Shown here: piece by piece, positions 34,676 to 53,058 of the stretch
How positions within the stretch are numbered: position 1 is the first letter of the stretch
Layout: each line of letters opens with the position of its first letter
IMG/VR virus record: IMGVR_UViG_3300044946_000035
Coordinates: 1-53,926 of that record
Reading direction: 5' to 3' (one strand)
Length of the DNA: 53,926 nt
Origin: a virus
Lineage: Duplodnaviria > Caudoviricetes
Notes under the pieces: model-generated
What the model saw: only the letters and a program-made list of their open reading frames with translations
Told to the model about the DNA's origin: nothing
The model's database searches: none
Translations under genes and position numbers: made by a program

Positions 34676-36859
34676 GTGCGCTGGTGGCTGCTCACATTCG
34701 TTCTGCTAACAGGATCGGCGTTCGCCCAGCTGACCACGGCGGTCACGGCCCAGGTGGCCGACGTGAATGGCTCCCCCTACGTCAACTGCCAGTGGTCGGT
34801 GACCTTTGTCGGTCAGTCCACTGCCCCCGGTGTTGGTCCTTACGCGCCCGCCGCCTTGCTCAACGGGCAGCAGGGGAAATGCGACTCAACCGGTCTCCTG
34901 ACTCTTAGCCTCGCGGATAACGTCAACACAGTCACTCCCACTCCGTCCCAGTGGCAGTTCAACATCTGCTCCGCCTCCGGCTACCCGGCTGGCCCGTACT
35001 GCTTTCAGAAACTTCTGACCATCACCGGGACCTCCCAGAACATCAGCGCGGCTCTGACTGCCGTTGCCCCAGTTCTCCCCGCGTTCAACGGGACCAATCT
35101 CCTGCCGGGGACTCCCACTGGATCAATCCAAGTGGCAACCGGGTCCTCCGTGTTCGCCGGAGCGCCGTCTCCGATATACGCATCGCAGCGTCCCGGAGCG
35201 GACTGCGGGGCCAAGATCAACTCTGCTGACGCGGCACTTGGCTCCAATGCCGGAGAAATCTGGCTGGACAAAAATTGCGGTTCGACCCTGACGACCCCTG
35301 TTACCTTGAGCGCCAACCACCACCTGAAGGTCGTCCAAGGCGGGCTCTATACCTACTGCGGAGAGTGGAAGCTCAACACTTCTTCCTCGCTCGAAGGCAC
35401 CATCTCCGGCTTTGTCGAGAACATCTCCGTCCAACCCCTGCCGCCGGTCCTCTTCCAGCAGGCTCCGGGATGCAATCTCGCGGTCAACTTCGATATCGTC
35501 GGGGCGAACGTAGCCATCTCGAACATCGGCCTCAGCTTCAACAATTCCTCAAACGCCGCCGGGGTCGGCATCCAGACTGATACCACCACCTGCTCGACCA
35601 ACGGGTGCCTCGGCCATCTTCTGCTCGACGGCGTGACCATCGCCCAAGGTTACAGCAACAACATCGTCATCCAGTCCACGGGGACGATTGACCAAGCGGT
35701 CGGCGCTCAAATCTGGCGTACCGTTTCCGAGAACTCCCTGAACGGTGACGGTCTCACCGTCCTCAAGACCACCGATGTCAAGCTCCACAACTACTTCGGC
35801 GAGACCAACGGGAACTGCGGCATCACCATCACGGGATCTACCGTCTGGACCGATACCTCTCCTGATATCTCGACCAATAACAACTGCGGCGTCTACATCT
35901 CCGGCACCCCGTCGAATCCCGCCGGCCTCGTTATCGAAATCCCTTCCATCACCTCTCCGTCCCTGACCTCGGGCGTCAACGCATCTCTCGACGGCGGGAT
36001 CGTGGTCCAAGGCTGGGACTCGACATCCTCGACCTGCAACAACGCCTCGCTCATTATCATCGGCGGAGCCTTCAGTGTTACTGGCGGCACTCAAACGAAC
36101 GCCTGGGACATGATTCACATCGAGAACACGGGCGGGGACCGGATTGCGTTCTCGAACTTCCTCGGCCCCGCTTCTGGTTCCGTCGCACGCTATGGCTATT
36201 ACCATGGCAACACCCATGCCTGCACCCTGCAACCGGATGTAATCATCGGCAACGAGTTCGTTGGGACCTTCGGCACGGGTAGCAGCTCCCTCTTCTCCTA
36301 CCTCTCCGGCGATGTCCTTCTGGCCAACAACGAAAGCGGCAACGCAGGCAGTTCGCTCGCCGAGTTCACCAATCACTACCTCCCGAATACCTATCCGCTC
36401 TACGCCGCGAACGCCGCTGGCGCTCCGCAGAAGGCATTGTTTACCGACGCCTCCAATAATCTATGGATCACGGGGGACCCGACCGCAGGCGTGATCGCGT
36501 TTCAGCCGCACGGCACGGGAGCGACGATTGCTTCCCTGACCAACTCGGGGATGCAGCTTGGGGCCTTGGCCGTCACCAATTCCGAAGTCACGCATAACAT
36601 CCTGACCGGCTCCGGCACCCTGACCTACACCGCCATCTCGACCCAGACTTGCCAAGAGCAGGCGATCACCGTCACCGGAGCTTCAGCCACAGCGGGCGCA
36701 GCAACCGCTTCCCCGAACGCCACCCTCGGCTCGACCAATCTCTCCTGGTCCGCCTGGGTGAGCGCAACCAACACGGTCTCGGTGCGTGTGTGCAACGTGG
36801 CCACGACCTCAACCATTACCCCGTCCGCAGTCACCTGGACGGCATTTGTGATGCAATGA
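34676..36859 (+). CDS. Spike-like beta-helix protein with an N-terminal signal peptide
   Basis: MRWWLLTFVLLTGSAFA|Q; DCGAKINSADAAL entry helix followed by parallel beta-helix-like repeats. Confidence 0.75.
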   Translation: MRWWLLTFVLLTGSAFAQLTTAVTAQVADVNGSPYVNCQWSVTFVGQSTAPGVGPYAPAALLNGQQGKCDSTGLLTLSLADNVNTVTPTPSQWQFNICSASGYPAGPYCFQKLLTITGTSQNISAALTAVAPVLPAFNGTNLLPGTPTGSIQVATGSSVFAGAPSPIYASQRPGADCGAKINSADAALGSNAGEIWLDKNCGSTLTTPVTLSANHHLKVVQGGLYTYCGEWKLNTSSSLEGTISGFVENISVQPLPPVLFQQAPGCNLAVNFDIVGANVAISNIGLSFNNSSNAAGVGIQTDTTTCSTNGCLGHLLLDGVTIAQGYSNNIVIQSTGTIDQAVGAQIWRTVSENSLNGDGLTVLKTTDVKLHNYFGETNGNCGITITGSTVWTDTSPDISTNNNCGVYISGTPSNPAGLVIEIPSITSPSLTSGVNASLDGGIVVQGWDSTSSTCNNASLIIIGGAFSVTGGTQTNAWDMIHIENTGGDRIAFSNFLGPASGSVARYGYYHGNTHACTLQPDVIIGNEFVGTFGTGSSSLFSYLSGDVLLANNESGNAGSSLAEFTNHYLPNTYPLYAANAAGAPQKALFTDASNNLWITGDPTAGVIAFQPHGTGATIASLTNSGMQLGALAVTNSEVTHNILTGSGTLTYTAISTQTCQEQAITVTGASATAGAATASPNATLGSTNLSWSAWVSATNTVSVRVCNVATTSTITPSAVTWTAFVMQ

Positions 36860-38109
36860 GCCTAGTCGGCGAACTGATCCTCAGCTTCCGCGAACTGGCG
36901 ACGGACCTACCGCAGGTCATGCCGCCGCCGACGCTCGTCTCACTCGCAGGCCAGACGGTTGCTGGGGGGATCTTCCAAGCAGGAACCTATTTCGTAGTCG
37001 CCACTCTCCTGTCCAGCTTCGGAGAGACGGCGCAGTCGCTCGAACAAACCGTCACCCTGAGCGGAGGCCAGAACTCGATCCTTGGCGTTATCACCTACCC
37101 GACCACGGGCGTCACCGGAGCGCGTTTCTACGTCACCCCAGTCGGCGGGCTCGCGGGCACGGAACTCAACTTCCAGGAGTTCGATTTCTCGAACAGCATT
37201 ACCAATTTCAACATCACCAATCCCGCGACCACCGCGACTCCGCCTTCGCGCTCGACCGCCTACCTCCCGGACACCGACGGTCCGGCGCTCGGAGCCTACG
37301 CTGCGTACCGCTGGCTGAATCAAGCCCTCGCGTGGGCGGCGGGAAAGAATCGTGGCGGGCTGCCTGACTTCGGCGCGGTGGGCACGACCAATGGCATAGG
37401 CAACTATGTCATGCCGGGATACTGGAAGAAAATCGACACCGCATGGTTCGACGGCTACCCTCTCGGCCTCCTGAACAAGAACAATGTATTTCGTCGTCAG
37501 CCTGTCCCCGGTTACTCCGGCGCACTGACCATCTTCCAAGCCACCGACCGCCTGATGGTTGAGTGCTGGCCGCAACCCAATCGAACTTCCAATCAGACCA
37601 CCCTAGCCTCACCTATGGCAGCGACGGACACGGTAGCCAATCTGACCTCAACCGCCAACTTCGTGCTGGGATTTGGGATGGCCTCGATCGGCACGGAACT
37701 CGTATATTATTCGGCCATCAATAACAATCAGCTAACCGGACTCCTGCGTGGGATGTGCGGCACGACTCCGGCGGCATGGCCCACGGGAGCATCCTCGGTC
37801 GAGCTGAACCTGATGATCAGCGGCTACCGCGTACCCTCGACCTATGCCCCTGGTTCAGCCCTCTCGACCCTGTATCTCCCTCCCGGCTGGGACGAAGCCT
37901 TAACCTCGTATATGCTCCATCGCTTCCGCAAGGCCGAGCAGGACGAAAACGGGGCCAAGACCTGCTTGCAGGAGGCCACGCAAAAACTCTCGGATCTATC
38001 CGCCAACCGGATTATCGCGGGGCCACGGCAGATCCAGCCATTTGGGACGCAGGGGCCGGAGATCGCGGTCGGTCTTGGATCGCCGTTCGGGGGAGTTATC
38101 ATCCGATGA
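36856..38109 (+). CDS. Head-tail adaptor/tail tubular-like protein with inserted beta domains
   Basis: ATGA coupling; YRWLNQAL and LPPGWDEALTSY...KAEQD adaptor-like motifs. Confidence 0.6.
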   Translation: MSLVGELILSFRELATDLPQVMPPPTLVSLAGQTVAGGIFQAGTYFVVATLLSSFGETAQSLEQTVTLSGGQNSILGVITYPTTGVTGARFYVTPVGGLAGTELNFQEFDFSNSITNFNITNPATTATPPSRSTAYLPDTDGPALGAYAAYRWLNQALAWAAGKNRGGLPDFGAVGTTNGIGNYVMPGYWKKIDTAWFDGYPLGLLNKNNVFRRQPVPGYSGALTIFQATDRLMVECWPQPNRTSNQTTLASPMAATDTVANLTSTANFVLGFGMASIGTELVYYSAINNNQLTGLLRGMCGTTPAAWPTGASSVELNLMISGYRVPSTYAPGSALSTLYLPPGWDEALTSYMLHRFRKAEQDENGAKTCLQEATQKLSDLSANRIIAGPRQIQPFGTQGPEIAVGLGSPFGGVIIR

Positions 38110-40664
38110 GCCAGATGCTCGTCCACTCCCGCTTCCTCAAGGGCCTTCAGGCAGGCTTCGACAAATTCTCGCAGCCCAAGGACTCCATCGCCCGGGTCTC
38201 GAACTTCCTGTTCACCAAGCGGGGAGCTTTAAAAGTCTGCGACGGAAGCTTGCTGCTGTCCGCGTTCAACGGAGCCTTGGAGACCCTCCCGTCCAACTTC
38301 GGAGCGTGGCTTGAACTCTTCCTCTACCAGCCCATCGGAACCGCGCCGGGGTACTTCGGGATTTACAAGGACTACGGCGCTCACCTTTTCAATCCCGGCT
38401 CTCTGGCAGCCTCAGCAGGGTCCTCGGGGGTCCTCTCTGGGACCTATTTCTATATCGTAACCGCCTCCGACGGAGCCGGAGGAGAAACCGCAGGGTCGAA
38501 CGAAGCCACGGTGACGCTTTCTTCGCAGAAAGGTTCCCTAAGCTGGACCGCAGTCCCGAACGCCGCTTCCTACAACATCTATCGAACCGCGAGCGGCGGA
38601 GCGTCCGGCACCGAAGTTCTCGCGGCGACTGGCGTCCTGACCAACTCCTACACGGATAACATCCCCGACAGTTCCCTTGGCACCAAGACTCCGCCTGCGG
38701 CCAACAACACGCAGCAGACGCAGTTTGTCGCCATCCCTTCCGGGAGCTACGGAGCGGGGAACATCGTGCGAGCGTTCCCGGCGGACGCCTTCCCGATTCT
38801 TGGCGGGATTCCCGGCGGCATCGGAGGAGGCGCTTACGGCAAAGGCGGAAACGTCTCCCCGACATTCCAAGGCGGAGTGACCGGAGCCATCTCTCCTATG
38901 CCCATGATCGTCGGATTCGTCAACAAGATGATTCTCGCGCTGGGGAACGGGATCACGCCCTTTCAATCCGACGCGACGAACCTTGGCACTATCCAGCTGA
39001 CCAACACCTTCACCGCCAGCTATCCCGCGTGGGCTACATCCGTCGCCACCAATGTCGGTGATCAGATCCAAGCGACGGTCGCCGGAACCGCGTATGTATT
39101 CACCGCCACGCAGGGAGGGATCACCAACTCCTCCGGCGCTCCAACTTTCCCCGCTACTCTCAATGCCACGGTCGTCGATGGCTCCGGTTCGACGGTGATC
39201 TGGAAAAACTCCGGCCAAGTCTCCGGTTCTCCCGTGCCTCGCGGCGCGGCGCACGAAGAAATCTACGCTGGCTCCCTTTGGGTGGCAAATACCTCTCCAA
39301 CCGAAACCTCCGACCAGCTCGACGGTCCCTCTGCCCTGCGTATGTCCGACCTCAACTCCCCGAACTCGTGGAACCCGCTGAATGCCGCCCAGATCGAGCC
39401 CGACGATGGCGATCAATGCACCGGCATCAAGGCGTTCACCATCGCTGAGGCCGGGATCGCTCCGCAGAACTTCCTGACCTATTTCAAGAACTTCTCGACC
39501 TTCATTATCCAAGGAGTATTCGGCTCGACCGACTTCTCCATCGTTCGCCTTCAGACGGACATGGGCAATATCGCTCCCCGCTCGCTTCAATTCGTCCCCG
39601 GCTTCGGCATCCTGCGGCTGTCTCACCTCGGATTCGCCAAGACCGACGGCATCACGGATCGACTGGAGAATCCCGAAGGGCTGCGTCCCTATCTGTTCGG
39701 CGGCGAGACCGATATCAACCCGGTGGACTGGAATTATCTCTACTTCTCGAAAGCCGCCCAGACCGCCAATCCTCCCATGTACGTCTGCGCCTGCCCGGTG
39801 CTGCCCATGATCGCGGGGAACATTGCATTCGTGTTCGCGGCGATGGGTTCGGGCGGATCGCTCCAGTCGGGGACTTACTGCATCAAGGCTTACCTGGTTA
39901 AGTTCAATGGCACGCTCCTATATTCGACGGAGGTCACTGCCAGCGGCGGGCCGGGGACCAAGATCACCGTCACCCTGCCCGTAGCCGCCCAGCAGGGCAA
40001 CTACTGGATCATCTACTTCGGCATCGGCTCGGGCAACGAGAACCAGTTCGTCCAGGTTCTCTCGTCGCAGACGACCGTGACCATCAGCGCTCCAGGCATC
40101 GCGGGCACCCCCGGCTCCTCAAATGGCTGGCTGACGCGCCTGTTCTGCTACGACCTCGTTCTCAAGGCATGGTCCGTCGTCGATCTCCCGTTCCCTATCT
40201 CGGTCCTGCGGCAGTTCCGTGCGCCGGGGACGATCCCCCTGACCATCATGGGAGGATTCTGGGACGGCGGGGTTCGTCGCTGGCAAGCAGGGGATGCCAC
40301 TTGGGACGCGGGCGCTACCAACAACTTCGCCCCCTCAACGGCGGTCCAGTGGAAAGTCCGAGATTCTGAGGTTTACGACGACGGCGCAACTTCAAAGCTG
40401 TTCAGCGATCAGGTTATAGTTCGCGGCGGAGACGGGATTCCCCCGACGATCACCTTGGAGGTCGTTACTGGAGGGAAGTCCCAAGGAATCCTCCCCGCAC
40501 AGATCACCAGCCTGACCGCGAACCAGTACGAGGCTCGCACGCGGGTATTGCAGACGATCGAGAATCTCCATCTGAATCTGGCTGGGTCGGGGCCGACTAC
40601 GATCGAGTCGATTGGGTATGAATTGACCAAGAAGCCGGTGGGATCGGCGCTGGTGTTCTCGTGA
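38106..40664 (+). CDS. Tail nozzle/stabilisation protein (P22 gp10 / T7 gp12-like) with FN3-like inserts
   Basis: NFLFTKRGAL at the N-terminus; LRMSD...P.SW, D.CTGI, G.IAPRSL, YDLVLKAWS motifs. Confidence 0.7.
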   Translation: MSQMLVHSRFLKGLQAGFDKFSQPKDSIARVSNFLFTKRGALKVCDGSLLLSAFNGALETLPSNFGAWLELFLYQPIGTAPGYFGIYKDYGAHLFNPGSLAASAGSSGVLSGTYFYIVTASDGAGGETAGSNEATVTLSSQKGSLSWTAVPNAASYNIYRTASGGASGTEVLAATGVLTNSYTDNIPDSSLGTKTPPAANNTQQTQFVAIPSGSYGAGNIVRAFPADAFPILGGIPGGIGGGAYGKGGNVSPTFQGGVTGAISPMPMIVGFVNKMILALGNGITPFQSDATNLGTIQLTNTFTASYPAWATSVATNVGDQIQATVAGTAYVFTATQGGITNSSGAPTFPATLNATVVDGSGSTVIWKNSGQVSGSPVPRGAAHEEIYAGSLWVANTSPTETSDQLDGPSALRMSDLNSPNSWNPLNAAQIEPDDGDQCTGIKAFTIAEAGIAPQNFLTYFKNFSTFIIQGVFGSTDFSIVRLQTDMGNIAPRSLQFVPGFGILRLSHLGFAKTDGITDRLENPEGLRPYLFGGETDINPVDWNYLYFSKAAQTANPPMYVCACPVLPMIAGNIAFVFAAMGSGGSLQSGTYCIKAYLVKFNGTLLYSTEVTASGGPGTKITVTLPVAAQQGNYWIIYFGIGSGNENQFVQVLSSQTTVTISAPGIAGTPGSSNGWLTRLFCYDLVLKAWSVVDLPFPISVLRQFRAPGTIPLTIMGGFWDGGVRRWQAGDATWDAGATNNFAPSTAVQWKVRDSEVYDDGATSKLFSDQVIVRGGDGIPPTITLEVVTGGKSQGILPAQITSLTANQYEARTRVLQTIENLHLNLAGSGPTTIESIGYELTKKPVGSALVFS

Positions 40665-41056
40665 TTAGTCAACTCGAAATCCGCCACCCCCACGTCAACG
40701 AGGTCCCTGATGACCTGATGGTCGGCTTCGAGTGCTTCAAGATGGACCCGGAGTTCCAGTGGGTGCTGATCGTGGACGGGAAAGTAAAAGCCCAGATGAT
40801 GTGCGCGAACATGGCCGGGATACTGTTCATCATCCGTCTGGTGTCCCACGCCGACGCCCCGCACGGATGGGCGGTACAATTCTTCCGCCACGTCATGCGC
40901 GAGGCCAAGGCTAACGGGATGATCGGCTATGCTACATTTCTCTCGGATAAGACCGAGGGAGAGCGTAAGCTGATGAAAATCGTTCAGCGGGTAGGTGGCT
41001 TGCTTTGTCCTGTGAGCGGCGTGTGGGCTTTCGGAAGTACCGAGGTGAACTACTGA
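40661..41056 (+). CDS. GNAT-like protein (position of P22 gp14 / T7 gp13)
   Basis: 131 aa; lies between the nozzle and ejection genes. Confidence 0.5.
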   Translation: MISQLEIRHPHVNEVPDDLMVGFECFKMDPEFQWVLIVDGKVKAQMMCANMAGILFIIRLVSHADAPHGWAVQFFRHVMREAKANGMIGYATFLSDKTEGERKLMKIVQRVGGLLCPVSGVWAFGSTEVNY

Positions 41057-41415
41057 TGCCTCCGATTTTAGGAATTGCGGGATTGTTGCCAGCCTTAATC
41101 GGTGCTGGGGTGACCGGGGTGACCACGGGACTTGAAGCCTCGGGTGCAATCGGTGGTGGGGGTGGTCCATCGCAAGCCACCCAGCAACAGGAACAGTTGA
41201 CGCAGCAGGAAGCGGCCCAGAAGCAGCAACAGCAACAGTTGCAGCAGACGTTCAAGTCGTTCGCTCCTGACGCGCAGGCGCAAACCGGAGGCTCGCTGTC
41301 AGACTCCTCCTTTGCTTCCCTAGTAGCGGAGTTAGCGGGCCAGCCGGGGAACATCGGGACAGCGCAGCAGACGATCTTCGGCAGCACGCCGGAATCGGGA
41401 TTGGGGGCATCGTAA
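41056..41415 (+). CDS. Internal virion/ejection protein (putative)
   Basis: Gly/Ala hydrophobic N-terminus, then a Gln-rich coil. Confidence 0.65.
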   Translation: MPPILGIAGLLPALIGAGVTGVTTGLEASGAIGGGGGPSQATQQQEQLTQQEAAQKQQQQQLQQTFKSFAPDAQAQTGGSLSDSSFASLVAELAGQPGNIGTAQQTIFGSTPESGLGAS

Positions 41416-42029
41416 TGTCGGAAGTTCTCTCACAAATCGGCACCTTCCTCGGCTCGACCACGGGCAAGGGACTGCTCACCGCCGGAACCGCTGGCGGCGG
41501 ACTGATCCAGAACATCCTCGCCAACCGTGAGGCCCAGCAGAAGCAGAACTTCGTCGAACAGCTGGTTACTAACCCGGCGAAATGGAATGCCTTCGTGGCC
41601 TCGAAGGAGCAACCTTTGCAGGCTGGACTGACCGCTGACATCGCCCGTTCAACCGACGCTTACGGAGCCGAACGCGGGCTCGGGTCGTCCCCGGCGGTGA
41701 TGAAGGATGTCTACGCGCAGGCATTGGCCCCGTACATCCAGAACGAGCAACAAATGGCGCAGAATGCCGCATTGCAATCCCTCGGTATCTACGAAGGCTC
41801 CCCGACCACCAAGCCAATCGACGTATCCTCTATTCTGAAAGCGTTCATGTCGATGCCAGGAAACCGTCCGGGGCCGTTCAACAGCATCCCGCCAGCGGTC
41901 CAGGGCGGAGCCCCTGGAGGAGTCCCGGTGCAATCCTCGCCGATACCGGATCAGATTCCCGGCAATGACCCATTCAGCTTGGATTCGCTCATCAGCGGCG
42001 GGGGGTACAGCGGAGGGGAGTTGGGATAA
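41415..42029 (+). CDS. Internal virion/ejection protein (putative)
   Basis: Gly-rich N-terminus; A.RGLGSS motif; TAATG coupling. Confidence 0.65.
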   Translation: MSEVLSQIGTFLGSTTGKGLLTAGTAGGGLIQNILANREAQQKQNFVEQLVTNPAKWNAFVASKEQPLQAGLTADIARSTDAYGAERGLGSSPAVMKDVYAQALAPYIQNEQQMAQNAALQSLGIYEGSPTTKPIDVSSILKAFMSMPGNRPGPFNSIPPAVQGGAPGGVPVQSSPIPDQIPGNDPFSLDSLISGGGYSGGELG

Positions 42030-42193: not shown

Positions 42194-42196
42194 AGA

Positions 42197-42304
42197 ATGG
42201 CTATAGCCCTCTGGTTGACTCGACGGCGTGGTTGGGCAGCTGGGTGGCTATACTTGGGAATATTGTTATGGAGAAAGTTTCGACACGGTGATGTTTGCAA
42301 TTAA
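42197..42304 (+). CDS. 35-aa hydrophobic/basic peptide (not in the ORF track)
   Basis: MAIALWLTRRRGWAAGWLYLGILLWRKFRHGDVCN. Confidence 0.35.
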   Translation: MAIALWLTRRRGWAAGWLYLGILLWRKFRHGDVCN

Positions 42305-44697: not shown

Positions 44698-47600
44698 ACC
44701 GACTACGCGCATTACTCATTACTCTCGCCCTGGCCTGCGCCCTCAGCCCCCCGGCGCTCGCCCAGACCTCGATCAATCAAGCCGGAGGCATCGGCAATGG
44801 CGGCACCGACTGTTCGACCGCCATCAACTGCGTGATCCTCCAGATATCTCCGGGGAGTCTCGGTTCCGCTTCCATCTGGGTCACGGGCACATGGAGCGCT
44901 ACGCTTCAGTTCGAGGTCACCTCCGATATCATCGCCAGCGGCTCGACCAACACCCAACTGAATGCGCTCACCTGGGTCTCGGTCAACGCGTTTCCCTCGA
45001 CTTCCACCACGGGCGCGAGCAACACGACCACAAATGGCCTCTGGGTACTGAACGCAGCCAATATCACCGGCCTGCGGGTCCGGGCATCGACTTACGCCTC
45101 CGGTCTCGTCAACGTAACCCTCCGGGCATCCACTGCTTCTGCCCGTAACAATGGCGGCGGCTCCGGCAGCGGGGTAGGCATCTATACGGTGGCTACCCTG
45201 CCTTCGGGCCTGGGCGCGGGTGGCACGGGAACTCTCGATACGGTCAAGGACGGTTCGACGGCAAGCGACTGCACTGTCGGCGGTGGAAGCAATGCCGTGG
45301 CTTGCATTTGGACCGGCGCGGCGTGGGCCTTCGCGGGATCGTCCGCAGCGGCTCCGGCGTTCTCGGCGATTACGAGCGCGACTAACACCTCGGCGACTAT
45401 GACTTGCGGCGCGGGTTGCACCATGACCACGACCAGCACTGGGGTCAACAATGCGAACGAGGTTAACGGGGGAACGGTCCCGGCCAGCGCTCCCTTAGTC
45501 GGTACCAACTCCAGCAAGCAGCCGATATCGGTAACCACGATTCCGACCTCAACCGTCCCGGCATTCACCGGGGACATGACCAACACTGCCGGTTCGCTCG
45601 CCACCACGGTTGGCCAGGTCAACGGTGCCGCGCTGCCCGCATCGGCCACATTTGCCGGGACCAATGGCAGCAACCAGGTGATCGCTACGGCCTGCACCTC
45701 GGCGGATCTGGTCGTCGGTAACGCTTCCAATAAGCCGGCTTGTGTGGCCCTCACGGGAGACTCTACCCTTACGAATGCCGGTCTTATGACCAATACCGCC
45801 CTGAATGGAGGATCGGTTCCAGCATCGGCTAAAGTGCTTGGCACCAACGGCTCCTCGCAGCCGATCGCGGCAGCTTTGACCTCAGCTCACCTCTATGTCG
45901 GCAACGCAAGCAACCTTCCGGCGGACGTGGCTTTGACCGGAGACTCGACGCTTACCAACGCTGGACTGATGACCAACACGGCCATCAATGGAGGCGCATT
46001 CCCCACCTCCGCCTCGGTCATCGGATCGAATGGCAGCGCCCAGCCGGTTACTGCCACCGCCCACGGCATCCAGGCCCCGCAGGATTGCAACGACGCTTCC
46101 GGCTCGGGAACGGCGCAAACATGCAGCACCACGGTTACCTTCACGCTGGGCCAGAAGGATTGCGTCAACTACACGCCGGGGACCACCAACACGGGAGATG
46201 TGACGCTCGCGGTGAACAGCGGCACGGCTTACCATTTTTACAAGTGGGGAGGGTCTTCCACGCTGGCGTCGGGAGATCTGGTGGCGGGCGTGACGCAGGT
46301 GGTATGTCTCGATTCCAGCAACCGATTTGAGCTGCCTACGGTCGGCAACCCTCCAGCGTCCGGCGCGACGATTAACAACCAGAATCAGTACGGAGCGCCT
46401 TACTATTCCACCTCGGGGTCGAATAACACCCTCAGCGGAATCGCCCCTCCAACCACGCAGGGATACTTTAATCAGGACTGGGTGAATACGACCAACGCGG
46501 CATCCGCTCCCCAAGTTGTCCAAGTCGGCCTCACCGGGCGGTCGCTTACCGGATCGGCTACTACCTGTGGAGGCTCCGGCGTTCTCTACAGCGATGTCGC
46601 CAGCTGGATTGATCACGACCAGGCCGCGACAGGAACGGTGAATTGCTCCCTGCCGACGCCAGCCACGTTGAACAACACCAGTTTCGCCTTCCGCTATACC
46701 AACCACTCGGCACAGACGGATACGATCACGCCAGCGGGGGGCTATACGATCCAGCTCGGCTCAGGAGCGGCGGCGTCAACTCTCAGCGTGGCGTCGGGAG
46801 TAGGCTGCGGGATCATCGTTGATCCGAACTCGGCGTCAAACTGGCTGGCAGACTGCTCAAACATCAACGGGACTACGGGCACAGGCACGGTCACGCACAG
46901 CGTCGGCGCGCTGACACCGCTCTACGCCCCAGTGATCGCCAATGGAGGAGCGGATGTTCAGAGTACGGGCGGGGGCTATATCATGCTGCCTCCCTTGACC
47001 TCCGGGTCCGATGTATGCGGCCCGCTGAACACCGCCCTCCTTGCAGCCCAGACTGCTGGCGTGGTGACCCCAAAGATCGACCTTTCGGGAATCGGCCCGA
47101 ATGTCATCTGTACCAGCGATCCCTTCGTTGGATTCACGAGCGTTAACGGCGCGGAAATCGACATCGGCGGCGGCACCATCTCCACCAACGTACCGATTGG
47201 GCTTCCCTACCGCGTGAGCCTGCACGGAACGTTTGGTTCGGGTAGCAGCATTAACGCCAGCACCACCTTTCACACCAACTACCCGACGATTGTCGGGACG
47301 ACGGCCTCGAACGACACCATCTGTTTCTCCAACGGAAACACGACGGTCATCTCGGGAACGAATGTGTCTGGCACTTGCACCGCAGGGGGCATAGCGTCTT
47401 TTGCCGGAGTGTTACCCCACTATGTTTTGCTGATGTGTCCGGGCACGACGCCCGCTTGCAATCCCGGTAATACTTTAGCAGTTGGAATCGTCCAAAGCGT
47501 GTCGAGTACAACGGCAGGCAATTCGTCGCTAACCCTTCAGCTTGGCCCATCGGGCAGCCTGACCATCCCGACCAGCGGGACCGGGTACCACTATGCGTTC

Positions 47601-49868
47601 GTGGCCCCACTGTTCTTTACCAGCTACCAGAACCAGTCGGGAGGCCTGATCACCACTAATTATCAGGAGTTGGAGCATGTCAGTCTGGGGGTAAACGATT
47701 CGACCTCTGGCGTCACCGACTGTCACTTTGGCTATTTCAATATGACAGGGCAAGAAGGCGTCTGGATGAACGATGTCAAGATCACCGACTCCTGCTGGGC
47801 TTATGTCGGGCAGTTCGAGCCGGGAGAGAACTCTGGCCCGCATCGCAATCTATACCTGTTATCGACCAAGGGATACTCATCGTCTATCGGAGGAGTCGGA
47901 ATCGTCGCCCGTGTGGCTACCTGGCACGGAGTACAAGACTCGACTATCAACATTCGCAATAGCACTTCTGAAACTGCGGTGACGGGCATTCTGGCCGCGA
48001 ACGGCTACAACGCACATGCGGGGACCTTGCCCAACTACGGCCCGGCCCAGTACATCCGTAACCACATCGAAATCGCAGGCGCGGGAGACGCGATCCAGAT
48101 CGGAGATGCTCTGGTATGGCCATGGGCCGCGAATGGCGAAGGTTTATCCGCTGTCAGCTTTGCCAACAACAGCGGCGGGCCGTCGAACGCGGGGAATCTC
48201 TATCACGTGATGAACGCGACCGGAGCCAGTGGAAGTTACAACGTCATTATCGACAACAGCGCCACGGAAGATGTCAACGCGCAATCGAACTGCATCAAGG
48301 ACGACGTAAATACGCTGAATTATGCGAACTGCCCTGTCCACTGGGCGGGCCCGGCGCAAGTCGCATCCGCCCCGGATATCATCGACGGAGGAGTGACCGC
48401 CTTCGGTCCGCTGGATATCGGAACGGTGGGCACGGCTGGCGTGCTTGGACTAGTCGGCTCGACCTCCGGCATAGCTACCTGCACTGCGCCAGCGGTCGCC
48501 GGGACGAGCACCAACGCGGTTGTCTGTACGAATAATCTCCAGGCTCCTGCGCTGGTCTCAACTGTAGCGATCGGCACCGCGCCACTCACTGTGACCTCGA
48601 CCACAGTTGTGCCGAACCTGAATGTCTCACAGCTCCTCGGGAAGACCTGGGCGGTTCCGTCCACCATCGGCAGCACCACGCCGAACACAGGTGCGTTCAC
48701 TACTCTGAGCGCATCGGGACAGGCCTCGGCTACCGCTGCCGGAGCGGCGTCCACCCCCGGCCTTCTCGTGTCCGGCGCTCCCTACACTGGTGGCTCCTCT
48801 TCAACCACCCAGCCGCAGGTGTATGTAAGCTCTGGCGGGTCAGTCACGGGATTCTCGACCGCAGGCACCGTATTCGGCATGAACGCGCCCTCGGGATTCA
48901 CCGGCAACCTGATTGATAGTTTCGTGAACGGCGGCGCGTCTCACTTATTCACGGTCAATTATCAGGGGAATATCACTGCCGGGTCATTGGCTGAAAATCT
49001 TTTGGCCGGAGCATCAGCGGCGGCTACCATTACTGAAGGTGGATCAACCTTCAGTGTGACGAGGGCAGGAGTATCTACCGCAAACCTAACCTATCCTTGG
49101 GTGTTCACGAACGCCAACTCGACGAACAACAATACTTCCGGGGTTGTGGGATTTAGCGCCAGCGGATCATCGACGGGCCAAACGGTAATGAATCTGAATC
49201 AGGCCACGACGGGCGGAGACATCCTCGACTGGGGCACGGGCGGATCATACTCGGCAGGAGTGCTCTCGGGGCAGACAATCTCTGGAAGCATCCTTGAGAA
49301 CGGTTCGATTCAGACCAAGGGAACAACTGCTGGATTCGTCGCCATGTCTCAGGGTTCGACCAGTTCAGGGGTCGCGCCTTGCAATGCAGCAACTACAATC
49401 TGTTTCCAGGCTCCAACTTCAGTTACATCGCAACTCCGTGTTCTGGCAGGCGCTCCGGCGACTGGATTCCCTTTGTACACCAACTCATCTGGCACGATGA
49501 CGGAGACAATCAGTGCGACCAGTGGGACGCTTAGCTCAGGAGTTGGAGTTCTGGGCACGCTAGCGGTGAACGCCGTTCTTGCTTCAACGGTAGCCAATGC
49601 CGCAGGCCATTTCACCAATCTCCAAGTCGTGACTTCGCTAGGCGGCACATGTTCAACGGTTCCAATCTTCAACGTGTTCGACGGAACAACGAACACTGGC
49701 TCGACGGTCACTGCGACATCGAGCACACAGACCAAGGGAACGGGCACCAGCACGGCACAGACCCTCACCTTTGCGGCGGGAGATGTGATTGGTATCTACA
49801 TTTCAACGGCAGGGGCGACATGCACCCTAGATCAATTCGTCGTCTCGGCGCAATACTCGATCCCATGA
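44694..49868 (+). CDS. 1724-aa fibre-like protein with an N-terminal signal peptide
   Basis: MNRLRALLITLALACALSPPALA|Q; T/S/G/A-rich repeats; central beta-helix-like region; C-terminal FAAGDVIGIYI module. Confidence 0.8.
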   Translation: MNRLRALLITLALACALSPPALAQTSINQAGGIGNGGTDCSTAINCVILQISPGSLGSASIWVTGTWSATLQFEVTSDIIASGSTNTQLNALTWVSVNAFPSTSTTGASNTTTNGLWVLNAANITGLRVRASTYASGLVNVTLRASTASARNNGGGSGSGVGIYTVATLPSGLGAGGTGTLDTVKDGSTASDCTVGGGSNAVACIWTGAAWAFAGSSAAAPAFSAITSATNTSATMTCGAGCTMTTTSTGVNNANEVNGGTVPASAPLVGTNSSKQPISVTTIPTSTVPAFTGDMTNTAGSLATTVGQVNGAALPASATFAGTNGSNQVIATACTSADLVVGNASNKPACVALTGDSTLTNAGLMTNTALNGGSVPASAKVLGTNGSSQPIAAALTSAHLYVGNASNLPADVALTGDSTLTNAGLMTNTAINGGAFPTSASVIGSNGSAQPVTATAHGIQAPQDCNDASGSGTAQTCSTTVTFTLGQKDCVNYTPGTTNTGDVTLAVNSGTAYHFYKWGGSSTLASGDLVAGVTQVVCLDSSNRFELPTVGNPPASGATINNQNQYGAPYYSTSGSNNTLSGIAPPTTQGYFNQDWVNTTNAASAPQVVQVGLTGRSLTGSATTCGGSGVLYSDVASWIDHDQAATGTVNCSLPTPATLNNTSFAFRYTNHSAQTDTITPAGGYTIQLGSGAAASTLSVASGVGCGIIVDPNSASNWLADCSNINGTTGTGTVTHSVGALTPLYAPVIANGGADVQSTGGGYIMLPPLTSGSDVCGPLNTALLAAQTAGVVTPKIDLSGIGPNVICTSDPFVGFTSVNGAEIDIGGGTISTNVPIGLPYRVSLHGTFGSGSSINASTTFHTNYPTIVGTTASNDTICFSNGNTTVISGTNVSGTCTAGGIASFAGVLPHYVLLMCPGTTPACNPGNTLAVGIVQSVSSTTAGNSSLTLQLGPSGSLTIPTSGTGYHYAFVAPLFFTSYQNQSGGLITTNYQELEHVSLGVNDSTSGVTDCHFGYFNMTGQEGVWMNDVKITDSCWAYVGQFEPGENSGPHRNLYLLSTKGYSSSIGGVGIVARVATWHGVQDSTINIRNSTSETAVTGILAANGYNAHAGTLPNYGPAQYIRNHIEIAGAGDAIQIGDALVWPWAANGEGLSAVSFANNSGGPSNAGNLYHVMNATGASGSYNVIIDNSATEDVNAQSNCIKDDVNTLNYANCPVHWAGPAQVASAPDIIDGGVTAFGPLDIGTVGTAGVLGLVGSTSGIATCTAPAVAGTSTNAVVCTNNLQAPALVSTVAIGTAPLTVTSTTVVPNLNVSQLLGKTWAVPSTIGSTTPNTGAFTTLSASGQASATAAGAASTPGLLVSGAPYTGGSSSTTQPQVYVSSGGSVTGFSTAGTVFGMNAPSGFTGNLIDSFVNGGASHLFTVNYQGNITAGSLAENLLAGASAAATITEGGSTFSVTRAGVSTANLTYPWVFTNANSTNNNTSGVVGFSASGSSTGQTVMNLNQATTGGDILDWGTGGSYSAGVLSGQTISGSILENGSIQTKGTTAGFVAMSQGSTSSGVAPCNAATTICFQAPTSVTSQLRVLAGAPATGFPLYTNSSGTMTETISATSGTLSSGVGVLGTLAVNAVLASTVANAAGHFTNLQVVTSLGGTCSTVPIFNVFDGTTNTGSTVTATSSTQTKGTGTSTAQTLTFAAGDVIGIYISTAGATCTLDQFVVSAQYSIP

Positions 49869-50668
49869 GAAAACTACTCATCTTCGTTGTACTCATCGCG
49901 GCTTCGTTTCTCCATGCTCAAGGCGGGATCGGGGGTAAGGGTGGTATTGGCGGGAAGGGTGGGATTGGGGGAGGGGTAACGAGTGGCGGCGGCAGTGTCA
50001 CAATCGCAAACCACTCTGCACCAAATAGTGCGTGCAGCGGTTCTACGACCTGTACGATTTCCATCACTGTAGGAACAACCGGAGACACGGTAGTCGGGGA
50101 GCTTCAGGGTTGCGTAGGAGCGAGTTGTGTCGCAGATACGGGTTGTACGTTCGCTGTCACTGATGGGACAAACACTTATTCGGCCATCTCTGGAGCCACC
50201 CTCCACGCGGTTACCGGAATACTTGGTTTCTACCCATTTGTTGCCGTTAACGCTACAGCAGGTACGTACACTCTGACCTTTACGATCAGCGGAGCCAGTT
50301 GCAACAGCGGTTCGCCAGCATTCGACTATGCTTATGTTTCTTACGCAGATTTTGCTGGGGCAAGCACGTCGTCCTCGGTTGATTCTGCCGTATCGAACAC
50401 CCACGTAGGTTCTACGTTCGTCACATCAGACAGCATCACTACCGCAGGCAATGTAGCTTTCTCTGGAGAGGTAATTTATACCGACATAGACAGCTCTGGG
50501 GCAGTCGCAATGACTGCCTGCTCCACTCTGGATGCCGCATTCAACGGTGGCGTATCCATTACTGCCGATTCAGTTCATCCAGCATCCGGTGGTACCGTCA
50601 CATGTTCGTGGTCACAAAATTCCGCTTCGGGTGCCGCACGAGCGACCATAATCGGTATCCACCCATGA
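49865..50668 (+). CDS. Secreted-type beta-sandwich protein in the fibre module
   Basis: ATGA coupling; MRKLLIFVVLIAASFLHA|Q then a GGIGGK repeat; Cys pairs. Confidence 0.75.
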   Translation: MRKLLIFVVLIAASFLHAQGGIGGKGGIGGKGGIGGGVTSGGGSVTIANHSAPNSACSGSTTCTISITVGTTGDTVVGELQGCVGASCVADTGCTFAVTDGTNTYSAISGATLHAVTGILGFYPFVAVNATAGTYTLTFTISGASCNSGSPAFDYAYVSYADFAGASTSSSVDSAVSNTHVGSTFVTSDSITTAGNVAFSGEVIYTDIDSSGAVAMTACSTLDAAFNGGVSITADSVHPASGGTVTCSWSQNSASGAARATIIGIHP

Positions 50669-53058
50669 AGCGGCTGCTGCTTACAATCTGCTTGATACTC
50701 TGCTCCATTTATAGTTCTGCCCAAGCATGGTCAGGAATCCTTGCTACGTCTAGAGCTATCGACTGGTCGAGTGTTGGTGCTGCAAATATCGGCACCCCCC
50801 GGACCCAATGCGGTGCGACGATTGCCGCTTACGGGTCGAGTGGTACTCCGCAATCCGCCGCAGCAATCAACACAGCACTCGCCGCCTGTCCTTACAACGG
50901 CTTCGTTCTGCTCGGCCCGGGCACGTTCTACCTGAATACCGGAATCTACTTTCCGTTTGGCGGGAGTAATAGCTCAGGATGCTCGACCAACTGCTCAAAT
51001 GTGACTCTGCGTGGGTCCGGGCCAAGCTCGACATTCATCATTTTCAGCGGTGGCACATCGTCAAGCTATTGCAACCCCCACTCAATCTGCGCCTCTGGTT
51101 CGTCGAACAACTATGCTGGAGGGCCGTCAAATTCCGCGAGTTGGGCGGCAGGGTATTCTCAGGGAACGATCTTGATCACGCTGAATAGTTTGGTCAATTC
51201 GGCTCCCGTCGTGGGCCAGCCCATCATTCTTGATCAGATCGACAACCAATCAGACAATGGCGCGCTGTATATCGGCTGCGAATATCCTGATGGTTCGACT
51301 TCCTGCCCAAACATCAGCCAAGTCGCGAGTGGCTACCAGCGCGGCGAAGGTTCTTATACCACCGTCCGAGGGCAGCAACAATTTGTCACCGTGACAAGCA
51401 TCTCAGGCTCGGGCACTGGACCGTACACAGTCGGCATTACGCCCGGACTCTACGCTTCTAACTGGAATGCGGTTCCGGGCACAAGTCTCCCCGGCGCATG
51501 GTGGGCTTCTGGCCCGGTTTACAATGATGGCGTCGAGAGTCTGTCTGAAGACCTGACAGCGTGGACGAATGCGGGCGGAAGTGGGATCACGTTTTACAAC
51601 TGTCAAGGCTGTTGGGTGAAGGCCGTTCGCAGCATTACATCATCAGCGGGGGGGACCGGATGGTATCACGTCGGCTTCGCCAACTCCAACCACGGCACGG
51701 TTCGCGACTCGTATTTCTACGGCTATCAAGGTGATGATTATGGCGTCTCGACCTATGGCGCGGGCGACATTCTCACCGAGAACAACATCCACCAGTACCC
51801 AGCGGAAAACGGCTTCTATAACTCTGACTGTGAAGGCTGCGTCTCGACTTATGAGTTTACGGTAAATCCCTACTTCGGACAATCGGCAAACTGGCTGGCC
51901 CAGCCTTCCGATTTTCACAGCATCGCATTGTTCACGCTCTTTGAAGGCAATATCGGGGCGGGAATCTATGAAGATGACTTCCACGGCAGCCATGGGCTGA
52001 ACACGCAATTTAGAAACCGCTGGGATGGAAGAGAGCAGAACAACGGCGGGGCAACGAGTAGTCAGACTCTGGCAATGGTTCTCTACCCAAACGCCCGGTA
52101 TAACAACACGGTCGGAAACGTCCTTGGCACTCCCGGCTATCACACGACCTACAAAACGACGCCAACGCAGTGCCCAACTCCCGGCACCTGTGCGGCGTGG
52201 GACACGACCGTCATCGGGGCCGGGGTGGGGAATACAGTCAGCGCCAATGATGCCTTGGTCAATACCACTTCGATGTTCTGGGGCAATTGGGACAATGTGG
52301 ACAACACAACGCGCTGGTGTGGAAACTCCTCGAATACAGGCTGGTCCACCACCTGTGGAAGCGTCTCGGAAGTTCCAACGGGGCTGAGTTCCTACGCGAA
52401 TACCGTCCCCGCAACCCAGACTCTTCCGTCATCGTTCATTTACACGACGAAACCTTCCTGGTGGACTTCGGGAAAAGCGTGGCCCAACATCGGGCCGGAC
52501 GTGACGGGCGGAAATGTCGGCCAGTGCTCAGGGGGAACCTATGACAGCTCAGAGGTTCTGAGTCCCGGCTCGAACTGCACCGGAGGGACGTTTACGGCGG
52601 TCGGGGGTGGCCTTGTGGTGAGCAATCCGGCAATGGACTGCTACTTCGCCATGGGCGGAAATCCGAATGGAACGGGTAGTGCGCTGACGGGCTTCAATTC
52701 GAGTAATTGTCCATACCTGGCCCCAGCAACGCAAGCCTCGGCTCCGTCCTGCACTCCAACCTCCGGCACCGTCCCCCAGACCGTAACCTGCACCAATCCG
52801 AACTCCGGTACGACGGTCATGTGCTACAACTTCACGGGTGGCCCCACAACAGATGGCACGGGAGCAGGCTGCGGGGCTGGCAGCACAAAATACACGACGG
52901 CGCTGACGATCTCCGTGCCGGAAACGCTTTACATCGTCGCCGGAACAAGCACACTGACGGACAGTGCGGTATCGTCGTACAGATACCTTGGCACATCGGC
53001 TCGCCCTGTGAATCTCATCATCGCCCGGCAACTACAGAATGCGGAGGCCTCTCAATGA
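50665..53058 (+). CDS. Pectin-lyase-fold/GH55-like beta-helix protein with a C-terminal CHB_HEX_C/FN3-associated domain and a signal peptide
   Basis: MKRLLLTICLILCSIYSSA|Q; AAINTALAACP...LLGPGTFYL, VTLRGSGP; APSCTPTSGT...YTTALTIS..ETL. Confidence 0.8.
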   Translation: MKRLLLTICLILCSIYSSAQAWSGILATSRAIDWSSVGAANIGTPRTQCGATIAAYGSSGTPQSAAAINTALAACPYNGFVLLGPGTFYLNTGIYFPFGGSNSSGCSTNCSNVTLRGSGPSSTFIIFSGGTSSSYCNPHSICASGSSNNYAGGPSNSASWAAGYSQGTILITLNSLVNSAPVVGQPIILDQIDNQSDNGALYIGCEYPDGSTSCPNISQVASGYQRGEGSYTTVRGQQQFVTVTSISGSGTGPYTVGITPGLYASNWNAVPGTSLPGAWWASGPVYNDGVESLSEDLTAWTNAGGSGITFYNCQGCWVKAVRSITSSAGGTGWYHVGFANSNHGTVRDSYFYGYQGDDYGVSTYGAGDILTENNIHQYPAENGFYNSDCEGCVSTYEFTVNPYFGQSANWLAQPSDFHSIALFTLFEGNIGAGIYEDDFHGSHGLNTQFRNRWDGREQNNGGATSSQTLAMVLYPNARYNNTVGNVLGTPGYHTTYKTTPTQCPTPGTCAAWDTTVIGAGVGNTVSANDALVNTTSMFWGNWDNVDNTTRWCGNSSNTGWSTTCGSVSEVPTGLSSYANTVPATQTLPSSFIYTTKPSWWTSGKAWPNIGPDVTGGNVGQCSGGTYDSSEVLSPGSNCTGGTFTAVGGGLVVSNPAMDCYFAMGGNPNGTGSALTGFNSSNCPYLAPATQASAPSCTPTSGTVPQTVTCTNPNSGTTVMCYNFTGGPTTDGTGAGCGAGSTKYTTALTISVPETLYIVAGTSTLTDSAVSSYRYLGTSARPVNLIIARQLQNAEASQ

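What the first reader, a model, noticed from the sequence alone, without database searches (positions are those of the whole stretch)
34676..53058. All four fibre/spike-like late genes carry Sec signal peptides: possible periplasm-matured virion appendages
Seen: 34676, 44694, 49865 and 50665 each begin with a basic-hydrophobic-small-residue leader cleaving before Gln (SAFA|Q, PALA|Q, FLHA|Q, YSSA|Q). They contain many closely spaced Cys pairs (e.g. CSTAINC, CGAGC, CPGTTPAC) and are very Ser/Thr-rich. They are embedded in the structural operon with ATGA overlaps, whereas capsid, portal, adaptor and nozzle have no such leader, and I see no leaderless fibre gene elsewhere. Established: tailed phages normally assemble fibres in the cytoplasm, and disulfides form in the periplasm. 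Inference: these proteins are exported, oxidatively folded (perhaps pyroglutamylated or glycosylated) and joined to particles only at or after inner-membrane lysis, a split-compartment assembly pathway. Alternatively they act on the host surface or matrix.
Basis: partly seen in the sequence, partly recalled or inferred. Interest (0 to 1): 0.88.

Follow-up and report, generated by a model that had tools for sequence, protein, structure and literature searches.

The report
Phage fibre genes carrying secretion leaders
In a soil-bacterium phage and its relatives, every fibre- or spike-like late protein is made with an export leader and paired cysteines, so these proteins fold outside the cytoplasm where the rest of the virus particle is built.

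Summary
The window is a complete 53.9-kb short-tailed phage genome. ORFs 34676, 44694, 49865 and 50665 each start with a basic-hydrophobic-AxA leader followed by Gln. Homologues of all four keep a leader at the same place with a different sequence.

In the window, five near-complete relatives and three further contigs I listed 26 variable, Ser/Thr- and Cys-rich late proteins. All have a leader. 24 of 26 have Gln at +1, and 24 of 26 have an even Cys count once the leader is removed (p=5e-6). Core virion proteins have no leader and 0-7 Cys.

In the N-terminal module of 34676, four conserved Cys are lost in pairs. The three leaderless homologues lack both pairs. The 50665 protein belongs to a secreted beta-helix family encoded in Wzx/Wzy polysaccharide loci of Terriglobia, and its fold resembles phage capsule depolymerases.

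Export and oxidative folding are therefore well supported. Membership of the virion is only inferred. The grounds are gene position, conserved phage-only N-terminal modules with swapped distal parts, and the absence of any leaderless fibre gene. I put joining of the particle after export at about 0.45. The main rival is free secreted enzymes or adhesins (0.35).

The parts
34676..36859 (+). SP1, 727 aa. Leader is residues 1-17 (34676-34726). N-terminal module A is residues 18-135 (34727-35080). Beta-helix-like middle is about residues 165-540 (35168-36295). C-terminal beta-sandwich module is about residues 600-727 (36473-36856).
   Evidence: Module A has pLDDT above 90 and a transthyretin-like beta-sandwich fold. 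It has four conserved Cys: C38, C69, C98 and C109.
44694..49868 (+). SP2, 1724 aa, fibre-like with repeated shaft units. Leader is residues 1-23 (44694-44762). The mature part has 32 Cys.
   Evidence: All 8 homologues carry leaders. The last 182 aa are 90% identical to those of a 1792-aa protein on a 62-kb contig.
49865..50668 (+). SP3, 267 aa. Leader is residues 1-18 (49865-49918), followed by a Gly-rich GGIGGK linker and a small Cys-rich beta domain.
50665..53058 (+). SP4, 797 aa. Leader is residues 1-19 (50665-50721). Right-handed beta-helix, depolymerase-like, spans about residues 20-686. The C-terminal extension (residues 687-797) is modelled with low confidence.
36856..38109 (+). Tail adaptor (weak SU10_adaptor match). 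Its start overlaps the SP1 stop (ATGA).
38106..40664 (+). Nozzle-type tail protein, 852 aa, no leader.
   Evidence: It is 57-60% identical in relatives.
33010..33999 (+). Major capsid protein, no leader, 1 Cys.
34028..34492 (+). Conserved 154-aa late protein between the capsid gene and slot 1. Function unknown.
   Evidence: It is 59-64% identical in four relatives.
34518..34547 (+). The only strong terminator-like hairpin in the late region. It lies upstream of SP1.
40661..44539 (+). Conserved leaderless small and ejection-type proteins between the nozzle gene and slot 2. The three largest (41415-42029, 42295-43401, 43391-44539) have 0 Cys.

Best explanation
The four ORFs are the variable host-surface-recognition and depolymerase set of a clade of short-tailed phages that probably infect Terriglobia (Acidobacteriota).

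Proposed pathway. Each protein is made late as a Sec precursor and translocated unfolded across the inner membrane. Signal peptidase I cuts it before Gln, which can then cyclise. The protein folds in the periplasm with all of its Cys in disulfides.

SP1 and SP2 carry phage-specific N-terminal modules. These two at least then dock on the tail of DNA-filled particles that were assembled in the cytoplasm. By analogy with SU10, the docks would be the adaptor and nozzle. Docking would happen when holin lesions merge the two compartments, or in the lysate.

SP4 is a captured host polysaccharide-locus glycanase. It, and perhaps SP3, either rides on the fibres or works as a free enzyme.

What is shown: the leaders, their conservation, the Cys statistics, the modular architecture and the origin of SP4. 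What is inferred: export itself, cleavage, disulfides, and above all attachment to the virion.
For: Leaders in all homologue families.
- SP4 family: 93 of 119 listed homologues pass my crude rule. Most of the rest are truncated or over-extended gene calls that show a leader by eye. Eight that I read in full all have a variable leader followed by a conserved Q-x-W-S/T-G motif.
- SP2: 8 of 8 homologues have a leader.
- SP1 module A: 67 of 70 homologues have a leader.
- SP3: of the 6 homologues read (of 8 found), 4 show a clear leader; P0288 has the same leader and Gly-rich linker but a different globular domain.

The trait holds across the clade. Five near-complete relatives of 52-58 kb share TerL, portal, capsid (90% identical in the two closest relatives, 53% in a more distant one), adaptor and nozzle. 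Their variable Cys-rich proteins sit in two slots: between the capsid genes and the adaptor gene, and after the ejection-type proteins. All 26 that I listed start with a leader.

Cys statistics. 24 of 26 have Gln at +1. 24 of 26 have an even Cys count in the mature part (binomial p=5e-6). From the leaders printed, only 20 of 26 are even if leader Cys are included.

Module A Cys pairs. 55 of 70 homologues keep all four Cys. 11 lack exactly one pair, either C38+C69 or C98+C109. The 3 leaderless homologues have no intact pair. One leaderless gene has an in-frame stop 9 nt upstream of its ATG, so the lack of a leader is real.

Architecture typical of receptor-binding proteins. N-terminal modules are conserved at 50-63% (module A) and 60-74% (module B), while the distal parts are unrelated. 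The SP2 tip is 90% identical to that of an otherwise different fibre. Module A was found in 8 viral contigs and in none of the species genomes scanned.

Operon position. The genes are embedded in the late operon with ATGA coupling and have no terminator or promoter of their own.

Precedent for two docks. In SU10 the adaptor and the nozzle each provide a fibre dock that binds fibre N-termini (PMC9509320, passages read).
Against: - No virion proteome, micrograph or isolate exists for this clade. SP1 and SP2 have no match in 50,697 GenBank phage records.
- There is no Pfam or PHROG tail-fibre signal in the four window proteins or in 10 related ones.
- The module A fold is a generic transthyretin-like sandwich with only weak structural matches (best E=0.067). 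It does not identify a known particle-binding domain.
- The mature N-terminus of SP4 is the same as that of its cellular homologues, so it has no added docking domain.
- Export before lysis separates these proteins from the particles. Joining would have to happen in a short interval or after dilution, and no tailed phage is known to do this.
- The leaderless module-A protein P0257 still has 14 Cys outside the module, so richness in Cys alone does not prove export.
- All leader calls rest on my own rule and on alignment, not on SignalP.
Confidence: 0.45

Rival explanations
1. All four proteins are exported, but none is part of the virion. They would be free periplasmic, surface or extracellular enzymes and adhesins. 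Possible roles are cutting or masking the host's exopolysaccharide or O-antigen, freeing progeny from the matrix, stripping neighbouring cells, or blocking superinfection. Receptor binding would reside in the conserved tail core.
For: - SP4 is a member of a cellular secreted family. In Terracidiphilus gabretensis its homologue lies between a Wzy_C gene and a Polysacc_synt_3 gene.
- That family was found in 29 of 401 sampled genomes of the class, while the phage capsid gene was found in 0 of 401.
- SP4 keeps the native leader and the native mature N-terminus.
- The phage encodes a further leader-bearing repeat protein in its early region (15563-16690, minus strand). It therefore exports non-structural proteins too.
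- Porphyromonas phages encode Gln+1 SPI proteins that were read as host-surface modifiers (PMC10367356, passages read).
- Export is the simplest reading of a Sec leader.
Against: - It leaves a six-genome clade with no variable receptor-binding gene at all.
- It does not explain phage-only N-terminal modules kept on unrelated cargo.
- It does not explain fibre-like proteins of 1,400-2,100 aa with shaft repeats and swapped tips.
- It does not explain translational coupling to the adaptor gene.
Confidence: 0.35
2. Dual fate. Each gene would yield an exported pool and a cytoplasmic pool, through inefficient export late in infection or through internal starts. The cytoplasmic pool would be built into particles in the ordinary way, and the exported pool would act as free enzyme.
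For: Free and virion-bound forms of depolymerases are known in other phages (recalled, no call). A leaderless, Cys-pair-free variant of module A exists, so the module can work in a protein that is not exported.
Against: Even Cys counts and pairwise Cys conservation argue that the functional fold needs disulfides. The reducing cytoplasm would not supply them. I saw no conserved internal start just after the leader.
Confidence: 0.1
3. The hydrophobic N-termini are not cleaved export signals. They would be retained anchors or docking helices, and assembly would be entirely cytoplasmic.
For: In SU10 the extreme N-termini of the fibres make the docking contacts. No experimental cleavage data exist for this clade.
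Against: - The leader sequences are not conserved while the residues after the cut are, which is the reverse of what a docking element would show.
- The n-h-c layout with small residues at -1 and -3 is canonical.
- Cellular SP4 homologues, which have no virion to dock to, have the same layout.
- Cys parity becomes more even only when the leader is removed.
Confidence: 0.07

Closest known systems
Podovirus receptor-binding cassettes: SU10 long and short fibres docking on adaptor and nozzle; P22, HK620 and LKA1 tailspikes; Klebsiella capsule depolymerases
   Same: - Position in the late operon next to the adaptor and nozzle genes.
- Conserved N-terminal module joined to swapped distal parts.
- The SP4 model is a right-handed beta-helix. 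Its best structural matches are the K1 capsule lyase 7w1c (E=1e-9), LKA1 gp49 and HK620 TSP.
- SU10 has two docks for two fibre types.
   Different: - None of those proteins is known to carry a Sec leader (recalled). Literature searches found no such report.
- The proteins here have 1.4-3.7% Cys in even numbers.
- There is no sequence similarity to any solved or GenBank phage protein.
Phage-encoded Sec or lipoprotein-exported proteins: Sec and SAR endolysins, the Rz1 spanin, lambda Bor and Lom, T5 Llp (all recalled), and Porphyromonas phage Q-rule proteins (PMC10367356)
   Same: Phage genes that use the host's general secretion pathway. The Porphyromonas case also shows Gln at +1.
   Different: Those are small lysis, exclusion or moron proteins. 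They are not the large mosaic fibre- or spike-like genes of the structural module, and they do not account for every such gene across a clade.
Secreted beta-helix family of Terriglobia polysaccharide (Wzx/Wzy) loci (unnamed; a few members carry PF12708)
   Same: SP4 is 51-59% identical over about 680 residues, with a leader and a conserved mature N-terminus.
   Different: The phage copy lies in a late operon and has an extra C-terminal stretch of about 110 residues. No cellular copy examined lies beside phage genes.
Filamentous phage coat proteins (pIII, pVIII; recalled)
   Same: Virion proteins made with leaders and matured outside the cytoplasm.
   Different: Those virions are extruded through the envelope and have no cytoplasmic capsid. 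The particle here is a DNA-packaged tailed head.

Membership tests
Sec/SPase I signal peptide | Positively charged n-region, uncharged hydrophobic h-region of 8-17 residues, and small residues at -1 and -3 | tested here: met
   Tested with my own rule, not SignalP.
Sec/SPase I signal peptide | The leader is positionally conserved but variable in sequence in homologues, and conservation starts at the mature N-terminus | tested here: met
Sec/SPase I signal peptide | Export and cleavage demonstrated | not testable with these tools
   Needs PhoA fusions or N-terminal mass spectrometry.
Disulfide-bonded extracytoplasmic protein | Cys occur in pairs: even counts, and pairwise conservation or loss | tested here: met
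   24 of 26 mature proteins have an even count, p=5e-6. In module A, 11 of 12 partial losses remove exactly one pair, and the 3 leaderless homologues have no intact pair.
Phage tailspike or tail-fibre receptor-binding protein | Beta-helix or fibrous fold related to known spikes | tested here: met
   SP4 model has pTM 0.84 and its top matches are phage depolymerases. The SP1 middle region is only partly modelled.
Phage tailspike or tail-fibre receptor-binding protein | N-terminal particle-binding domain conserved among related phages, with variable distal parts | tested here: inconclusive
   The conserved-N, variable-C pattern is present. The module's fold is generic, and binding to the particle is not shown.
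Phage tailspike or tail-fibre receptor-binding protein | Trimeric assembly | not tested
   No multimer model was run.
Phage tailspike or tail-fibre receptor-binding protein | Presence in purified virions | not testable with these tools
   No isolate or proteome exists. There are no matches in GenBank phages.
Q-rule type SPI substrates (Gln at +1, pyroglutamate) | Gln immediately after the cleavage site | tested here: met
   24 of 26, with cleavage sites assigned by me.
Q-rule type SPI substrates (Gln at +1, pyroglutamate) | The host has a glutaminyl cyclase | tested here: inconclusive
   Glu_cyclase_2 scored 328 bits in 2 of 4 genomes that hold SP4 homologues. The true host is unknown. The Q-rule paper does not mention Acidobacteria.
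Moron (independently expressed accessory gene) | Own promoter and terminator, separable from the operon | tested here: not met
   ATGA coupling, and no flanking promoter- or terminator-like sites above the shuffled background.

The most novel reading that the evidence does not exclude
A whole clade of tailed phages builds its particles in two compartments. Heads and tail cores would be assembled in the cytoplasm. All receptor-binding fibres and spikes would be Sec-exported, disulfide-bonded and pyroGlu-capped in the periplasm. They would snap onto the tail only when the inner membrane is breached. This would be a virion assembly step outside the cytoplasm for a Caudoviricetes phage, perhaps an adaptation that gives appendages extracellular-grade stability in acidic soils.
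Probability: 0.45. Interest if true: 0.92.

Novelty: new variant of a known kind. Interest (0 to 1): 0.8.

Why it matters
Textbook assembly of tailed phages takes place entirely in the cytoplasm. Annotation pipelines even treat absence of a signal peptide as a mark of phage receptor-binding proteins (PMC6199706, passage read).

Here a six-genome clade has no fibre or spike candidate without a leader. Either virion completion happens outside the cytoplasm, or these phages infect without variable receptor-binding proteins and instead invest up to 20% of their genome in secreted proteins. Both outcomes would be new.

The finding also shows a direct route from a host polysaccharide-locus glycanase to a phage depolymerase. 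It supplies disulfide-stabilised polysaccharide-acting proteins from a phylum that has almost no phage biology. Public gene calls can miss such leaders: the database entry for SP4 starts 169 residues too late.

Tried and rejected
- Complex prediction of the adaptor (alignment A3) with SP1 residues 18-160 (alignment A1) returned no verdict. It counts neither for nor against binding.
- Pfam and PHROGs on the four proteins and on 10 related leader proteins gave nothing useful. The only hit was one weak head-decoration match in a single relative.
- tblastn of SP1 and SP2 against GenBank phages found no match.
- PDB sequence searches with SP1, SP2 and the SP4 profile found no match.
- Foldseek on the SP1 model gave only generic transthyretin-like sandwiches with E of 0.07 or worse.
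- The ESM Atlas search on module A returned viral clusters at 0.81-0.86, including one Head_binding cluster at 0.81. All are below the tool's noise mark, so this is a lead only.
- A scan of species genomes for module A found none, but it used only two peptide patterns.
- The capsid gene was found in 0 of 401 sampled genomes of the class, so there is no prophage context and no direct host proof.
- I looked for the loci of the leaderless homologues in viral contigs. P0257 was not found and P0261 returned only other proteins. The single metagenome scan then found the P0257 locus.
- Tat export was considered and rejected. The leaders are short (17-30 aa) and Leu-rich, only a few have RR, and disulfide folding argues for Sec.
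- A PEP-CTERM or other C-terminal sorting signal was not seen by eye.
- A recognisable endolysin or integrase was not found among the ORFs tested.
- The search of earlier findings returned nothing for this genome.
- Supplementary files of PMC10367356, which list its Q-rule phage genes, were not seen.

Full report
**What the window is.** The 53,926-base window is the whole record. Its first and last 127 bases are identical, so it is a complete, circularly closed or terminally redundant phage genome.

The plus strand from about 20 kb to the end is a late operon. It contains:
- a large terminase (25991-27751);
- a portal (29151-30833, phrog_156);
- a scaffold-like gene (32158-32988);
- a major capsid protein (33010-33999, phrog_9953, about 25% identical to the capsid proteins of Myxococcus phages Mx8 and Mx9);
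- a conserved 154-aa protein (34028-34492);
- an adaptor with a weak SU10_adaptor match (36856-38109);
- an 852-aa nozzle-type protein (38106-40664);
- small and ejection-type proteins (40661-44539).

No tRNA gene was found. No integrase was seen among the ORFs tested.

**The observation.** Each starts with one to three basic residues, then an uncharged Leu/Ile/Val-rich stretch, then a small-x-small motif followed by Gln.

The start codons are credible. 34676 is a GTG six bases after GGAG, and 44694 follows AAGGAG. 49865 and 50665 are ATGs overlapping the preceding stop as ATGA. The SP1 stop overlaps the adaptor ATG in the same way.

SignalP is not among the tools, so I used a simple n-h-c rule. 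On 83 greedily chosen ORFs of the genome it marks 7 first starts. Three score 4.5 or more, and two of those three are 34676 and 44694. 50665 scores highest of all at its internal start. 49865 was not in that ORF set, because an antisense ORF displaced it.

The four proteins have 23-26% Ser+Thr, only 6-8% charged residues and 1.9-3.3% Cys. Terminase, portal, scaffold, capsid, adaptor, nozzle and the ejection-type proteins have 0-7 Cys each and no leader.

SP4 has more than 900 homologues. Among the 119 listed besides the window's own entry, 93 pass my rule. Most of the others are 5'-truncated or over-extended gene calls in which a leader is visible by eye. One (P0022) begins directly at the mature motif. 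Eight that I read in full all have a different leader followed by the same Q-x-W-S/T-G...SRA.DWS start.

SP2 has only eight homologues. All are giant fibre-like proteins, and all eight begin with a leader ending before Gln.

SP1 is modular. Residues 18-135 (module A) recur at the N-terminus of 70 of the 150 best hits, in proteins of 122 to 1,864 residues. 67 of the 70 have a leader in front.

SP3 homologues also have leaders: of the 6 read (of 8 found), 4 show a clear one. P0288 shares the leader and the Gly-rich linker but carries a different globular domain.

**Related phages.** Module A was found in eight IMG/VR contigs and in none of the species-representative bacterial genomes. The latter scan used only two peptide patterns.

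Five of the eight contigs are near-complete genomes of 52-58 kb. I fetched them completely. They share the core: terminase up to 75% identical, portal up to 73%, capsid 90% in the two closest relatives and 53% in a more distant one, adaptor 35-63%, and nozzle 45-58%.

Between the conserved genes are two variable slots. Slot 1 lies between the 154-aa protein and the adaptor. Slot 2 lies after the ejection-type proteins.

Every large protein in these slots that is rich in Ser/Thr/Gly/Ala/Asn and in Cys starts with a leader. Counting the window, these five genomes and three further contigs, I listed 26 such proteins. No core protein has a leader, and no genome has a leaderless fibre-like gene.

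A second N-terminal module (module B, about 115 residues, 60-74% identical) heads other slot proteins in three relatives. The N-terminal domain of SP2 resembles it only loosely.

**Evidence that the proteins are really exported.**

First, 24 of the 26 have Gln right after the cut I assigned.

Second, 24 of the 26 have an even number of Cys in the mature part (binomial p=5e-6). From the leaders printed in that call, six contain a single Cys. With leaders included, only 20 of 26 would be even. The parity is therefore sharpest for the processed form.

Third, module A has four conserved Cys. Among its 70 homologues, 55 keep all four. Eleven lack exactly C38+C69 or exactly C98+C109, and one is irregular. 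The three leaderless homologues have no intact pair. Pairwise loss is what disulfide partners show.

The absence of a leader is real for at least one of these genes. The gene for P0257 has an in-frame stop nine bases before its ATG, and a good GAGGA lies upstream.

One caveat applies. P0257 still has 14 Cys elsewhere in the protein, so Cys content alone is not proof of export.

**What SP4 is.** Four chromosomal loci of Terracidiphilus, Terriglobales and Acidobacteriaceae hold 51-56% identical genes.

In Terracidiphilus gabretensis S55 the gene sits between a Wzy_C polymerase/ligase gene and a Polysacc_synt_3 flippase gene. A DegT aminotransferase, an acyltransferase, glycosyltransferases and an asparagine-synthase-like gene lie nearby. 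This is a Wzx/Wzy polysaccharide locus, not a prophage.

In a sample of 401 genomes of that class, the family was found in 29 and the phage capsid gene in none. Three of the 29 genomes are flagged unpublished.

A model built on 90 sequences (pLDDT 82.8, pTM 0.84) is a right-handed beta-helix. Its best structural matches are phage capsule and O-antigen depolymerases: the Klebsiella K1 lyase, LKA1 gp49, phi297 gp61, KP34p57, AP22 gp54 and HK620 TSP. Bacterial GH110 enzymes and alginate epimerases follow.

SP4 is thus a host-type secreted polysaccharide-acting enzyme carried by the phage with its native leader. A 35%-identical copy occupies the same last position of slot 2 in relative G003.

This also points to Terriglobia as the host group. 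That is the only host evidence.

**What SP1 and SP2 are.** The SP1 model is confident only in three regions: module A (a transthyretin-like sandwich), the first turns of a beta-helix, and the C-terminal sandwich. Structural matches are generic.

SP2 has repeated shaft units shared with other giant leader-bearing proteins. Its last 182 residues are 90% identical to those of a 1,792-aa protein whose remainder differs.

A conserved head module, unrelated middles and exchanged tips form the classical pattern of receptor-binding proteins. SU10 has the nearest solved adaptor family. There, six long fibres dock by their N-termini on the adaptor and six short fibres dock on a loop of the nozzle (PMC9509320, passages read). 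Two docks and two N-terminal module families would fit together.

**Mechanism and its rivals.** I regard export, cleavage and disulfide formation as well supported, although none has been observed directly. Whether the exported proteins end up on the particle is open.

In favour of attachment:
- their position in the operon and their translational coupling to it;
- the absence of a promoter or terminator of their own;
- N-terminal modules found only in phages;
- the fibre-like size and mosaic structure;
- the lack of any other variable late gene in six genomes.

P22 heads accept tailspikes in vitro (recalled, no call), so late attachment is physically possible.

Against attachment:
- there is no proteomic or structural evidence for it;
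- SP4 has no added docking domain;
- the phage also exports a non-structural repeat protein;
- the time available for joining after the membrane is breached is short.

A free-enzyme or adhesin role therefore remains a strong rival. A mixed outcome is quite possible, with SP1 and SP2 on the particle and SP3 and SP4 free.

**Comparison with what is in print.** Full-text searches found no report of Sec leaders on fibres or spikes of tailed phages.

The closest report concerns Porphyromonas gingivalis phages. They encode five proteins of unknown function that obey the Bacteroidetes Gln+1 rule and were read as surface modifiers (PMC10367356, passages read). The Q-rule paper does not mention Acidobacteria (PMC5837995, passages read).

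Two of the four genomes that hold SP4 homologues encode a Glu_cyclase_2 enzyme. The Gln+1 habit may therefore extend to this phylum.

**Verdict.** It is far beyond chance and conserved across a clade. The virion part is plausible but unproven.

Noticed in passing
window 1-127 and 53800-53926: The first and last 127 bases are identical. The record is a complete genome, and the ORF at 53347 runs across the junction.
   Followed up: partly
window 15563-16690 (-): A 375-aa early-region protein with its own leader (cut before Gln) and tandem Gly-rich repeats of the form GNLYG...GG...CGT.F.L. From memory these resemble the Gloeo_Verruco repeat family. This would be a fifth exported protein, outside the late operon. 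Pfam and PHROGs gave no significant match.
   Followed up: partly
window 2639-3010 (+), 390-584 (+), 2413-2622 (+): A 123-aa protein with a lipoprotein-type leader (Cys after LG) and a weak Rz match. It is conserved in two relatives. Two small proteins with two hydrophobic helices each look holin-like. No endolysin was recognised among the ORFs tested.
   Followed up: partly
window 34569-34673 (+) and 44536-44697 (+): Two very basic small ORFs (34 and 53 aa) lie directly upstream of SP1 and SP2. The first is conserved in four relatives, where it precedes either the slot-1 genes or the adaptor gene.
   Followed up: partly
window 50665-53058: The public protein entry for this gene (P0005, 628 aa) starts 169 residues inside the ORF. 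Automated annotation therefore misses the leader. GC also falls to 0.54 here, against 0.59-0.61 upstream.
   Followed up: partly
L028 and L029 (genomes G006, G008): Terracidiphilus-type genomes encode a Glu_cyclase_2 glutaminyl cyclase (328 bits). Together with Gln at +1 in 24 of 26 phage leaders and in the cellular SP4 homologues, this hints that a Q-rule like that of Bacteroidetes operates in Terriglobia.
   Followed up: partly
L030 1268-3562; L031 about 777: A separate phage lineage carries module A without a leader and without its four Cys. It shares no other detectable protein with the window phage.
   Followed up: partly
window 3356-3817 (+) and 1283-2014 (+): Two leaderless beta-rich proteins lie after the lysis-like genes. 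One has a Big_2 Ig-like domain (phrog_215, structural protein with Ig domain). Neither is conserved in the relatives.
   Followed up: partly
SP2, SP3 and their homologues (C-termini): SP2, its relative P0125, SP3 and five of the six SP3 homologues read end in a hydrophobic-x-Pro tail (for example SIP or HP). I know of no sorting signal of this form.
   Followed up: no
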